5,276 nucleotides of DNA, from positions 1 through 5,276 of the forward strand of contig NZ_CP046227.1 in NCBI RefSeq assembly GCF_012562765.1, in the 5' to 3' direction. Below the pieces are notes generated by a model. That model was given only the letters and a program-made list of their open reading frames with translations. It had not been told where the DNA came from and made no database searches. Numbering within the stretch: position 1 is the first letter of the stretch; every line of letters starts with the position of its first letter. A program made the position numbers and the translations under genes. Shown here piece after piece: positions 2,910 to 3,596 of the stretch. Source of the stretch: Candidatus Saccharimonadota bacterium. GTDB taxonomy: Bacteria; Pseudomonadota; Gammaproteobacteria; Enterobacterales; Enterobacteriaceae.

Positions 2910-3596
2910 TTAATTTTTAGTTAATACTAAAAATTTTGTTGTATTATCTATTTTATTTGATAAAGATGGAGTTTTTATTATATTTAAATTAAATAATTTT
3001 GCTGTTTCTTTATTTCCTATAGCAGCAAAATTATTTAATTTAAATATAAATAATTTTTTTATTGCATCAGCAGTACTATTACAAATATTTTTTTTCCAAA
3101 AAGGATGTTTATTAATAAATATACTACACTGTTTAAATGGTTCGGAATGGCTAAAAATATTATCAATGTCATTAATATTAGTAAATTTATTATATGAAAT
3201 TAAACGATGTTTAATTGGAATTTTAAATTGATAAAAAATTTTCAGAGAGCTATGTTTTAATAATTTATTTACTTCCTTTATTATCCCAGAACAACTATTT
3301 TCTATAGGTACTATAGCAAAATTAATAATATTTCTTTCCATAGAAAAAAATAATTCAGAAAAATTATTACAGCTTACATTGAAAATTTTTTTTCTAGAAA
3401 AAAAATTTTCAATGTAAGCTAAAGTAGCTAAATAAGAATAAGTACCTTGAGGACCTAAAAAAGCTATACTAATAATAGAATTATTCTTTTGAAGATTAGA
3501 AGAATAAACATGTTTTATAAAATATTTTAAATTATTAATTTTTATTTTATTTTTTGCAAAATAAAAACTAAATTTTGTACGGATATTATTAATCAT
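2910..3596 (-). CDS. pheA: Prephenate dehydratase catalytic domain only (pheA-derived; lacks a functional chorismate mutase domain and the ACT regulatory domain); an expressed remnant or pseudogene cannot be excluded
   Basis: The 228-aa product is collinear, with no net indels, with E. coli P-protein residues ~59-286 as I recall that sequence. [18 protein letters not shown] matches [46 protein letters not shown] matches [50 protein letters not shown] matches [41 protein letters not shown] matches [29 protein letters not shown] matches NFTRFVVLAR, so the TRF-motif threonine is retained as T220-K-F. Only ~43 aa precede IAFLGP, against ~100 in E. coli. The ORF stops right after the TRF strand, so no ACT domain or ESRP motif is present, and only ~100 nt of non-coding DNA follow. 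Confidence 0.8.
   Translation of the reverse strand: [228 protein letters not shown]

What the first reader, a model, noticed from the sequence alone, without database searches (positions are those of the whole stretch)
2910..3596. Plasmid-borne pheA trimmed to the prephenate dehydratase catalytic core, without the allosteric ACT domain
The ORF aligns by eye to E. coli P-protein residues ~59-286. The 5' portion encoding chorismate mutase helices 1-2, which as I recall carry the catalytic residues, is gone. The ORF ends one strand after the TRF motif, essentially at the PDT/ACT boundary (PDT about 101-285 and regulatory domain 286-386 in the E. coli domain-dissection work, as I recall). Published dissection of the E. 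coli enzyme showed that the isolated PDT domain is active and no longer inhibited by phenylalanine. A clean domain-only copy on a self-replicating element could therefore be a deregulated, copy-number-amplified step toward phenylalanine. That would parallel the plasmid-amplified leu and trp genes of Buchnera. The alternative is a decaying gene fragment. Against decay, the PDT motifs are conserved ([11 protein letters not shown], SHxxPFxQC, T-K-F) and the frame is intact in DNA where stops arise easily.
Basis: partly seen in the sequence, partly recalled or inferred. Interest (0 to 1): 0.75.

Follow-up and report, generated by a model that had tools for sequence, protein, structure and literature searches.

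The report
Trimmed phenylalanine enzyme on symbiont plasmid
The small plasmid of a reed-beetle gut symbiont carries a working-looking copy of the phenylalanine gene pheA cut down to its dehydratase core, without the part that normally lets phenylalanine switch it off. The gene's place on the plasmid was already published, but it was described there as a full two-function enzyme.

Summary
The window is the complete 5,276-bp plasmid of the Plateumaris pusilla symbiont. The ORF at 2910-3596(-) is real. Only the PDT domain is detectable (Pfam 152 bits). It matches E. coli PheA residues 106-285 and stops one residue past the PDT/ACT boundary. No CM or ACT signal appears in any frame of eight orthologous plasmids.

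It is not decaying. All orthologues seen (Plateumaris, Donacia, Macroplea, Neohaemonia) share the same truncation. A codon model gives omega 0.02-0.08 for the core (p 1e-11 to 1e-17). N160, Q215 and T278 equivalents are invariant, and the AF2 model is a complete PDT fold.

In congeners the chromosomal pheA slot is empty (83 bp), and adjacent TyrA keeps an intact chorismate mutase domain, which is the prephenate source. The gene is therefore most likely the symbiont's only prephenate dehydratase and cannot be feedback-inhibited through ACT.

The "amplified" part is unsupported. Published RNA-seq from relatives shows transcripts about 50-70-fold below trfA and about 6-8-fold below tyrA. No copy-number data exist.

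The plasmid location was published (Reis 2020), but the gene was called bifunctional CM/PDT. ACT-less pheA also occurs in a Blochmannia and in Periphyllus Buchnera. This is a modest new variant of a known kind.

The parts
2910..3596 (-). pheA-derived ORF, 228 aa, prephenate dehydratase domain only (GenBank QJC29765.1 / WP_168892878.1, locus tag GJT83_02455)
2916..3467 (-). PDT catalytic domain (residues 44-227), equal to E. coli PheA 106-285. AF2 predicts a complete two-lobe PBP-type fold, with the last strand at residues 219-226.
3468..3596 (-). N-terminal extension (residues 1-43). It is poorly conserved and variable in length (about 28-48 aa in orthologues), with a predicted helix at 23-35. 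It may be a relic of chorismate mutase helix 3 plus linker, but the similarity is not significant.
2931..2939 (-). T-K-F motif (residues 220-222), equal to E. coli T278-R279-F280. Thr and Phe are invariant in all orthologues; the Arg position varies (K/H/N/S).
2866..2906 (.). Inverted repeat with a 19-bp stem, 3 bp beyond the PDT stop, between the convergent PDT and adhesin genes. Probably a bidirectional terminator.
3597..3658 (-). 62-bp trfA-PDT spacer. It is too short for a CM domain or a pheL-type attenuator. The spacer is 44-70 bp in all eight plasmids.
3659..4522 (-). trfA, plasmid replication initiator, immediately upstream on the same strand
4707..4904 (.). About eight 22-bp iterons (CTAGACTCGGGATAACAAGTAG), the presumed TrfA-dependent oriV

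Best explanation
The ORF is the symbiont's only prephenate dehydratase. It descends from an enterobacterial bifunctional P-protein (pheA) that lost both its N-terminal chorismate mutase domain and its C-terminal ACT (phenylalanine-sensing) domain, and moved from its chromosomal slot next to tyrA to the TrfA/iteron plasmid. This happened before the reed-beetle symbionts diversified.

Proposed mechanism:
1. Chorismate is converted to prephenate by the chorismate mutase domain of chromosomal TyrA.
2. Free prephenate is split between TyrA's dehydrogenase (toward tyrosine) and this plasmid-encoded PDT (toward phenylpyruvate).
3. Phenylpyruvate is transaminated to phenylalanine by host or other transaminases.
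4. Without ACT, the enzyme cannot be switched off allosterically by phenylalanine.
5. Because it is the sole PDT, it also locks the plasmid into the cell.

Shown here: domain content, conservation of the truncation, purifying selection, fold, the empty chromosomal slot (read in one congener), and an intact TyrA chorismate mutase domain in four congeners.
Taken from the literature: transcription in relatives.
Inferred: catalytic activity, phenylalanine insensitivity, and use of TyrA-derived prephenate.

Over-expression through plasmid copy number is not part of this explanation.
For: Identity:
- The window is the P. pusilla symbiont plasmid (100% protein match on a 5,276-bp contig; Table 1 of PMC7289800).

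PDT only:
- Custom CM and ACT HMMs, run with --max on all six frames of eight plasmids, give best E of 0.18-0.23 among 2,664 segments. Positive controls score 88-104 bits.
- There is no room for lost domains: 44-70 bp upstream and 29-129 bp downstream.

P-protein origin:
- The best NCBIfam model is the bifunctional equivalog (157 bits, against 120 and 88 for monofunctional PDT models).
- The nearest relatives are about 380-aa P-proteins matched at about residues 100-286.

Conserved truncation:
- All orthologue representatives seen are 215-232 aa. The ten aligned end 1-9 residues after the T-x-F strand. Together they span four host genera.

Selection:
- GY94/F3x4 maximum likelihood gives omega 0.024-0.080 for the core. 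The likelihood-ratio test against omega=1 gives p from 7e-11 to 1e-17, the same range as trfA and the adhesin.

Key residues:
- The equivalents of N160, S208, H209, Q215, C216, T278 and F280 are invariant.

Fold:
- AF2 gives pLDDT 90. Top PDB matches are PDTs (6vh5, 2qmx, 2qmw; E 1e-17 to 1e-12, about 186 aligned columns).

Chromosome:
- In P. consimilis the order is aroF-tyrA-bamD with only 83 bp where pheA lies in E. coli.
- No chromosomal PDT appears in the 26-genome gene table.

Prephenate source:
- TyrA of three Plateumaris and one Donacia symbiont has CM_2 at 62-70 bits (profile 1-76/80). R11, R28, K39, R51, E52 and S84 equivalents are all kept.
- No tight channelling of prephenate in PheA has been reported (PMC6199770).

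Transcription:
- The orthogroup is detected and larval-upregulated in 2 of 4 species.

Independent parallel:
- Blochmannia of C. obliquus has a 200-aa PDT-only gene in the native slot, facing a CM-containing tyrA.
Against: - No biochemical data exist for this protein.
- In solved PDTs the ACT domain forms much of the dimer interface, and a dimer-breaking mutation abolished the only activity assayed for it (AHL quenching) in the PDT homologue GqqA (PMC8192741). An ACT-less enzyme could therefore be impaired.
- The Arg of the TRF motif is Lys here and is not conserved among orthologues. The Glu of PIEN is Tyr or Ser in Donacia and Macroplea.
- mRNA levels in relatives are low (baseMean 19-125).
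- TyrA of P. pusilla itself was not retrieved. Its presence rests on the paper's orthologue table and on four congeners.
- KEGG assigned no orthology number to the gene.
Confidence: 0.72

Rival explanations
1. One reading: ACT loss plus the move to a multicopy plasmid is an adaptive device for overproducing phenylalanine. It would give a deregulated, dosage-amplified committed step, analogous to the Buchnera pLeu/pTrp plasmids.
For: - ACT is absent and the gene lies next to trfA on an iteron plasmid.
- ACT has been lost independently in other nutritional symbionts: Blochmannia (L129) and Buchnera of Periphyllus (L131).
- Buchnera PheA regulatory-domain changes have been interpreted as desensitisation (Jimenez 2000, cited in PMC5737371).
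- The gene is larval-upregulated in 2 of 4 species, at the stage when amino-acid supply matters.
Against: - PDT mRNA is about 50-70-fold lower than trfA and about 6-8-fold lower than chromosomal tyrA in both species with data.
- Plasmid copy number has not been reported.
- Domain loss is also what reductive genome evolution produces without any selection for deregulation.
- The Blochmannia parallel shows the same trimmed enzyme without any plasmid.
Confidence: 0.2
2. A decaying pheA fragment: a pseudogene remnant that happens to stay open.
For: - It lacks two of the three ancestral domains.
- GenBank annotates it as 'hypothetical protein', and KEGG assigns no orthology number.
- mRNA is low.
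- The N-terminal 43 residues are weakly constrained (omega up to 0.7, not significant).
Against: - The frame is intact in every orthologue seen, in DNA of about 20% GC where chance ORFs do not exceed 121 aa.
- Core omega is 0.02-0.08, with neutrality rejected at p<=7e-11 in four pairs.
- Catalytic and substrate-site residues are invariant.
- The truncation points are conserved.
- The model is confident and shows a complete fold.
Confidence: 0.03
3. A PDT-fold protein recruited to another job. Examples would be arogenate dehydratase, an acyl-homoserine-lactone or beta-lactam acylase like GqqA, or a plasmid-maintenance role. Phenylalanine synthesis would then be covered by the host.
For: - GqqA (PDB 7am0), a PDT homologue with acylase activity, is among the structural matches (PMC8192741).
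- Residues equivalent to E159 and R279 vary among orthologues.
Against: - The closest sequence relatives are bona fide P-proteins.
- The residues I recall as required for PDT activity are invariant.
- The rest of the shikimate, TyrA and PDT pathway is kept in all 26 genomes, with this as the only PDT.
- GqqA itself still complements pheA.
Confidence: 0.05

Closest known systems
E. coli P-protein (PheA, CM-PDT-ACT, 386 aa; NCBIfam NF007910)
   Same: The PDT core is 36% identical over PheA 106-285 and collinear. It has the same N160/Q215/T278 constellation. The ancestral gene sat between bamD and tyrA.
   Different: It lacks the chorismate mutase domain (1-100) and the ACT domain (286-386). It scores 157 bits against an equivalog cut-off of 577. 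It is plasmid-borne, with no pheL leader or attenuator.
Engineered isolated PDT domain of E. coli PheA (residues 101-285; Zhang et al. 1998, J Biol Chem 273:6248) and ACT-deleted or mutated feedback-resistant pheA used for phenylalanine overproduction
   Same: The boundaries are almost identical (this ORF covers 106-285 plus one residue). By recollection, the engineered domain was active and insensitive to phenylalanine. The domain limits are confirmed in PMC8192741.
   Different: This one is natural and ancient, not engineered, and it carries an unrelated-looking 43-aa N-terminal extension. Its activity and insensitivity have not been measured.
Plasmid-borne 'bifunctional chorismate mutase/prephenate dehydratase' of Donaciinae symbionts (Reis et al. 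2020, PMC7289800)
   Same: It is the same gene. The paper reports it on the plasmid of all 26 species and proposes that it explains plasmid retention.
   Different: The paper, and the 2025 RNA-seq study that labels it 'pheA', treat it as bifunctional. The terms I searched for in either text turned up no mention that the CM and ACT domains are missing.
PDT-only pheA of Blochmannia endosymbiont of Camponotus (Colobopsis) obliquus (WP_052712335.1, CP010049)
   Same: It is a 200-aa PDT-only protein with no CM or ACT remnants, next to a tyrA that keeps CM_2. The division of labour is the same.
   Different: It is still in the ancestral chromosomal slot. Its N-terminal extension is only about 10 aa. 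The loss was independent (39% identity).
pheA of Buchnera from Periphyllus (and apparently Chaitophorus) aphids
   Same: The ACT domain is absent and the PDT ends at the same boundary.
   Different: The chorismate mutase part is retained as an overlapping upstream ORF. The split lies at a conserved poly(A) tract thought to be rescued by transcriptional slippage (bioRxiv 10.1101/2022.08.28.505559). Buchnera has no tyrA.
Buchnera pLeu / pTrp plasmids
   Same: An amino-acid biosynthesis gene sits on a small replicon in an obligate nutritional symbiont, and the chromosomal copy is absent.
   Different: There is no evidence here of raised copy number or expression, and the RNA data point the other way. 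It is a single trimmed gene rather than an operon. The plasmid's largest gene is an adhesin.
Monofunctional PDT-ACT enzymes with solved structures (2qmx, 2qmw, 6vh5, 3mwb, 4lub)
   Same: The catalytic fold is the same: Foldseek E 1e-17 to 1e-12, rmsd 1.9-3.1 A over about 186 columns.
   Different: All of these carry the ACT domain, which binds phenylalanine and contributes the dimer sheet. Sequence identity is only 19-27%.

Membership tests
Prephenate dehydratase (Pfam PF00800, EC 4.2.1.51) | Full-length PDT domain above the Pfam gathering score | tested here: met
   152.4 bits against a cut-off of 25.2; profile positions 1-178 of 181
Prephenate dehydratase (Pfam PF00800, EC 4.2.1.51) | Catalytic Thr of the T-R-F motif and the conserved Asn and Gln of the substrate site (E. 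coli T278, N160, Q215; roles recalled from Zhang et al. 2000; the TRF triad is cited in PMC13217925) | tested here: met
   T220, N100 and Q156 are invariant in 10 orthologues and in Buchnera and E. coli. The Arg is Lys here.
Prephenate dehydratase (Pfam PF00800, EC 4.2.1.51) | Two-lobe periplasmic-binding-protein-type fold | tested here: met
   AF2 pLDDT 90 and pTM 0.84. The top 13 PDB hits are PDT-family structures: PDTs, the PDT homologue GqqA (7am0) and 3luy.
Prephenate dehydratase (Pfam PF00800, EC 4.2.1.51) | Conversion of prephenate to phenylpyruvate | not testable with these tools
   Needs an enzyme assay or complementation
Bifunctional P-protein PheA (NCBIfam NF007910) | N-terminal AroQ chorismate mutase domain (CM_2) | tested here: not met
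   No Pfam hit at E<=1. The custom CM HMM with --max finds nothing in six frames of eight plasmids. hhalign P=0.58.
Bifunctional P-protein PheA (NCBIfam NF007910) | C-terminal ACT regulatory domain with GALV/ESRP motifs | tested here: not met
   The ORF stops at the PheA-286 equivalent. Only 101 bp remain before the convergent gene. The best ACT HMM hit has E 0.18.
Bifunctional P-protein PheA (NCBIfam NF007910) | Score at or above the equivalog cut-off | tested here: not met
   157 bits against 577
Bifunctional P-protein PheA (NCBIfam NF007910) | PDT core of the P-protein lineage (descent) | tested here: met
   The P-protein model is the best of three PDT models. The nearest homologues are about 380-aa P-proteins.
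Plasmid-amplified amino-acid genes of endosymbionts (Buchnera pLeu/pTrp type) | Biosynthetic gene on a self-replicating plasmid, with the chromosomal copy absent | tested here: met
   trfA plus iterons. The pheA slot is empty in the P. consimilis chromosome. No chromosomal PDT appears in the 26-genome table.
Plasmid-amplified amino-acid genes of endosymbionts (Buchnera pLeu/pTrp type) | Plasmid copy number above the chromosome's | not tested
   No read-depth data were available, and neither paper reports it.
Plasmid-amplified amino-acid genes of endosymbionts (Buchnera pLeu/pTrp type) | Raised expression of the plasmid-borne gene | tested here: not met
   From literature data for two relatives: baseMean 19-22 and 125, against tyrA at 126-132 and 988, and trfA at 1,391-1,595 and 6,694. 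There are no data for P. pusilla itself.
Pseudogene / decaying fragment | Frameshifts or stops in orthologues, or dN/dS near 1 | tested here: not met
   All orthologues are intact. Omega is 0.02-0.10 with p<=7e-11.

The most novel reading that the evidence does not exclude
Removal of the phenylalanine-sensing ACT domain from PheA may be a recurrent, selected solution in insect nutritional endosymbionts (reed-beetle symbionts, a Blochmannia, Chaitophorinae Buchnera). That would make it a natural counterpart of the feedback-resistant pheA alleles built by metabolic engineers. The reed-beetle lineage would be the extreme case: a minimal PDT, dependent on TyrA for prephenate, and physically coupled to the plasmid replication gene so that plasmid and phenylalanine supply are inherited together.
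Probability: 0.3. Interest if true: 0.6.

Novelty: new variant of a known kind. Interest (0 to 1): 0.42.

Why it matters
It corrects a published annotation. [quoted passage not shown] The symbiont's only chorismate mutase found here is the one fused to TyrA, so both phenylalanine and tyrosine supply pass through TyrA.

It is also a natural, long-lived example of an allosteric domain being deleted from a committed-step enzyme, with independent parallels in ant and aphid symbionts.

This makes one question directly testable with a single small protein: do host-restricted symbionts lose end-product control by selection, or simply by erosion? It also tempers the usual assumption that a gene on a plasmid is an amplified gene.

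Tried and rejected
It did yield a Nardonella locus, which I used later.
2. Blochmannia TyrA used as a protein probe did not bring reed-beetle TyrA into the 120 rows listed. Nardonella TyrA did.
3. TyrA of P. pusilla itself, and exact-sequence look-ups for P0005, P0313 and P0315, were not on record.
4. Nei-Gojobori dN/dS gave 0.35-0.8, because dS saturates at about 95% A/T third positions. Biopython's YN00 failed for most pairs. I replaced both with my own GY94/F3x4 maximum-likelihood fit.
5. Chorismate mutase helix-3 origin of the N-terminal extension: not significant.
6. ACT vestige downstream: the best hits in two Donacia plasmids lie just 3' of the stop, but at chance level (9 bits, E 0.17).
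7. Promoter scan: 24 hits against 27 expected, so uninformative. The spacer fold gives z=-1.9, so it is not convincing.
8. InterPro/Pfam identifiers were not found in the stored supplements of the 2025 paper. The Jimenez 2000 paper (PMC102009) is not held.

Full report
**What the window is.** The PDT protein is 100% identical to GJT83_02455 of the "Enterobacteriaceae endosymbiont of Plateumaris pusilla", which sits on a 5,276-bp contig. Table 1 of Reis et al. 2020 lists that symbiont's plasmid as 5,276 bp and 20.5% GC, and the window matches both figures. So the window is the whole plasmid. It holds three genes:
- a 935-aa inverse-autotransporter adhesin at 1-2808(+);
- the ORF in question at 2910-3596(-);
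- trfA at 3659-4522(-).

It also holds about eight 22-bp iterons at 4707-4904.

**The observation.** The ORF is real and far beyond chance. It has no internal stop, against 10-42 stops in the other five frames. Simulated sequence of the same composition never exceeds 121 stop-free codons.
- Pfam reports only PDT: 152 bits, residues 44-227, covering 178 of 181 profile positions.
- NCBIfam places it on positions 99-285 of the 386-residue P-protein model.
- BLASTP aligns residues 44-227 to E. coli PheA 106-285 at 36% identity.
- The published domain limits are CM 1-109, PDT 101-285 and ACT 286-386 (PMC8192741). The protein therefore ends one residue after the PDT/ACT boundary.

The one part of the observation I could not confirm is similarity of residues 1-43 to chorismate mutase helix 3. 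BLASTP stops at residue 44. hhalign of a 12-sequence profile of the extension against a CM profile gives P=0.58. Several phmmer alignments to P-proteins do run collinearly back to about residues 62-85. A relic is therefore possible but not demonstrable.

**No hidden domains.** I built CM and ACT HMMs from homologues that carry those domains. I searched them without filters against every stop-to-stop segment in all six frames of eight orthologous plasmids, treated as circles.
- The best E-values were 0.23 (CM) and 0.18 (ACT) among 2,664 segments.
- E. coli PheA and TyrA scored 88-104 bits as controls.

The flanks leave no room either. There are 44-70 bp between the trfA stop and the PDT start, and 29-129 bp between the PDT stop and the stop of the convergent adhesin gene.

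**Functional gene, not a fragment.** The orthologue representatives I saw come from Plateumaris, Donacia, Macroplea and Neohaemonia symbionts. They are 215-232 aa, PDT-only, and share the same gene order: trfA, then PDT, then the adhesin gene converging on it. The ten I aligned end 1-9 residues after the T-x-F-LVL strand.

Counting methods are unreliable at about 20% GC, so I fitted a Goldman-Yang codon model with F3x4 frequencies by maximum likelihood.
- For the PDT core, omega is 0.024-0.080 in four species pairs.
- Neutrality is rejected at p = 7e-11 to 1e-17.
- This is the same range as trfA (0.045-0.080) and the adhesin (0.050-0.098).
- The N-terminal extension is only weakly constrained (0.07-0.70).

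The equivalents of E. coli N160, S208, H209, Q215, C216, T278 and F280 are invariant. The Arg of TRF is Lys here and varies among orthologues. The Glu of PIEN is Tyr in Donacia and Ser in Macroplea.

AlphaFold2 on a 31-sequence alignment gives pLDDT 90 and a complete two-lobe fold, whose last strand (219-226) closes the first lobe. Foldseek's top PDB hits are prephenate dehydratases.

**Origin.** The bifunctional P-protein model scores best of the three PDT models in NCBIfam. The nearest homologues in an exhaustive search are about 380-aa proteins matched at about positions 100-286. The gene is therefore a trimmed P-protein, not an imported monofunctional PDT.

**The chromosome.**
- E. coli has the order bamD-raiA-pheL-pheA, with tyrA-aroF converging on it.
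- In the P. consimilis symbiont chromosome (CP046230), aroF and tyrA are followed by bamD after only 83 bp. The pheA slot is empty.
- The 26-genome gene table of Reis 2020 lists DAHP synthase and "chorismate mutase I / cyclohexadienyl dehydrogenase" in all 26 genomes, and no chromosomal prephenate dehydratase.

That annotation source also mislabelled the plasmid gene, so I checked TyrA directly. A Nardonella TyrA probe retrieved TyrA of P. rustica, P. consimilis, P. braccata and D. tomentosa symbionts.
- All have CM_2 at 62-70 bits over profile positions 1-76/80, plus both PDH domains.
- All keep the chorismate mutase active-site residues of E. coli TyrA.

TyrA of P. pusilla itself was not retrieved.

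**Mechanism.**
1. TyrA's mutase makes prephenate.
2. Prephenate is not tightly channelled even in intact PheA (PMC6199770).
3. The plasmid PDT turns it into phenylpyruvate.
4. The final transamination is attributed to the host.

With no ACT domain there is no known site for phenylalanine inhibition. By my recollection of Zhang et al. 1998, the isolated E. coli PDT domain is active and insensitive to phenylalanine. I could not read that paper here.

One caveat applies. ACT contributes much of the dimer interface in solved PDTs, and a dimer-breaking mutation abolished AHL quenching, the only activity assayed for it, in the PDT homologue GqqA.

**Amplification is not supported.** A 2025 RNA-seq study (PMC12508126) mapped reads to four reed-beetle symbiont genomes, plasmids included. 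Its supplements give DESeq2 baseMean values as follows:

| Gene | D. marginata symbiont | M. mutica symbiont |
|---|---|---|
| plasmid PDT (labelled pheA, no KEGG number) | 19-22 | 125 |
| trfA | 1,391-1,595 | 6,694 |
| tyrA | 126-132 | 988 |

The gene is larval-upregulated in two of the four species. It is therefore transcribed, but at a low level. Neither paper gives plasmid copy number.

**What is already known.** Reis et al. [quoted passage not shown] The searches I ran in that paper and in the 2025 study turned up no mention that the CM and ACT domains are absent. NCBI now names most orthologues "prephenate dehydratase domain-containing protein". Desensitisation of Buchnera PheA through changes in its regulatory domain was proposed in 2000 (cited in PMC5737371).

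**Parallels found here.**
- A Blochmannia (of C. obliquus) has a 200-aa PDT-only gene in the ancestral slot, facing a CM-containing tyrA.
- Buchnera of Periphyllus has CM and PDT ORFs but no ACT. The split between them lies at a known poly(A) slippage site.

ACT loss therefore recurs in nutritional symbionts. The reed-beetle case adds loss of the chorismate mutase domain and relocation to a plasmid.

**Verdict.** I rate it a new variant of a known kind, of moderate interest.

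Noticed in passing
window 1-2808 (+): The plasmid's largest gene encodes a 935-aa inverse-autotransporter (intimin/invasin-like) adhesin with IAT_beta, BIg21 and InvE_AD domains. 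It is present on all seven Plateumaris and Donacia plasmids I fetched, and it is under purifying selection (omega 0.05-0.10). The words autotransporter, intimin, invasin and adhesin do not occur in the 2020 paper or its supplements. Its presumed D. marginata orthologue (the gene next to trfA) has baseMean of about 6,000 and is strongly larval-biased. It could matter for the symbiont's switch between extracellular and intracellular life, and for why the plasmid is kept.
   Followed up: partly
window 4707-4904: About eight tandem 22-bp iterons (CTAGACTCGGGATAACAAGTAG), locally GC-rich, lie upstream of trfA. This is presumably the TrfA-dependent origin of replication.
   Followed up: partly
window 2866-2906: A near-perfect inverted repeat with a 19-bp stem, followed by a T-run, lies between the convergent stops of the PDT and adhesin genes. 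It is the only terminator-like site in 2700-5276 (0.3 expected by chance).
   Followed up: no
window 3297-3299 (E99) and 2934-2936 (K221); orthologues in L001, L006-L008: The Glu of the PIEN motif (E. coli E159) is Tyr in the four aligned Donacia orthologues (P0006-P0009) and Ser in Macroplea. The Arg of TRF is K, H, N or S across orthologues. These residues are relaxed here even though they are conserved in ACT-bearing PDTs. This may be linked to loss of the allosteric domain.
   Followed up: no
L006 2527-2613 (+) and L008 2279-2428 (+): The two best ACT-HMM hits among 2,664 segments lie on the PDT strand just downstream of the PDT stop in two Donacia plasmids. They match the first strand and helix of ACT, and they are antisense to the adhesin's 3' end. 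At 9 bits and E 0.17-0.8, they are at chance level.
   Followed up: partly
L130 6132-6214 (P. consimilis symbiont chromosome CP046230): The 83-bp tyrA-bamD spacer, where pheA sits in E. coli, contains a long AT-rich inverted repeat (AGAAACTTAATATTA / TAATATTAAGTTTCT) and no pheA remnant.
   Followed up: partly
L129 6001-6603 (Blochmannia of C. obliquus) and L131 2714-3549 (Buchnera of Periphyllus aceris): These are independent ACT-less pheA genes in other insect symbionts. The Blochmannia gene is PDT-only, next to a CM-bearing tyrA. The Buchnera locus has a 98-aa CM ORF overlapping a 182-aa PDT ORF by 10 nt, with no ACT. P0033 (200 aa, 45% identical, from an unnamed sequencing-run assembly) is a further PDT-only relative of unknown origin.
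   Followed up: partly
window 3597-3658 and supplements of PMC12508126: PDT mRNA is about 50-70-fold lower than that of trfA, which ends only 44-70 bp upstream on the same strand. This implies termination, processing or separate weak transcription within a very short AT-only spacer. In Plateumaris a TATAAT sits 2 nt before the ATG.
   Followed up: partly
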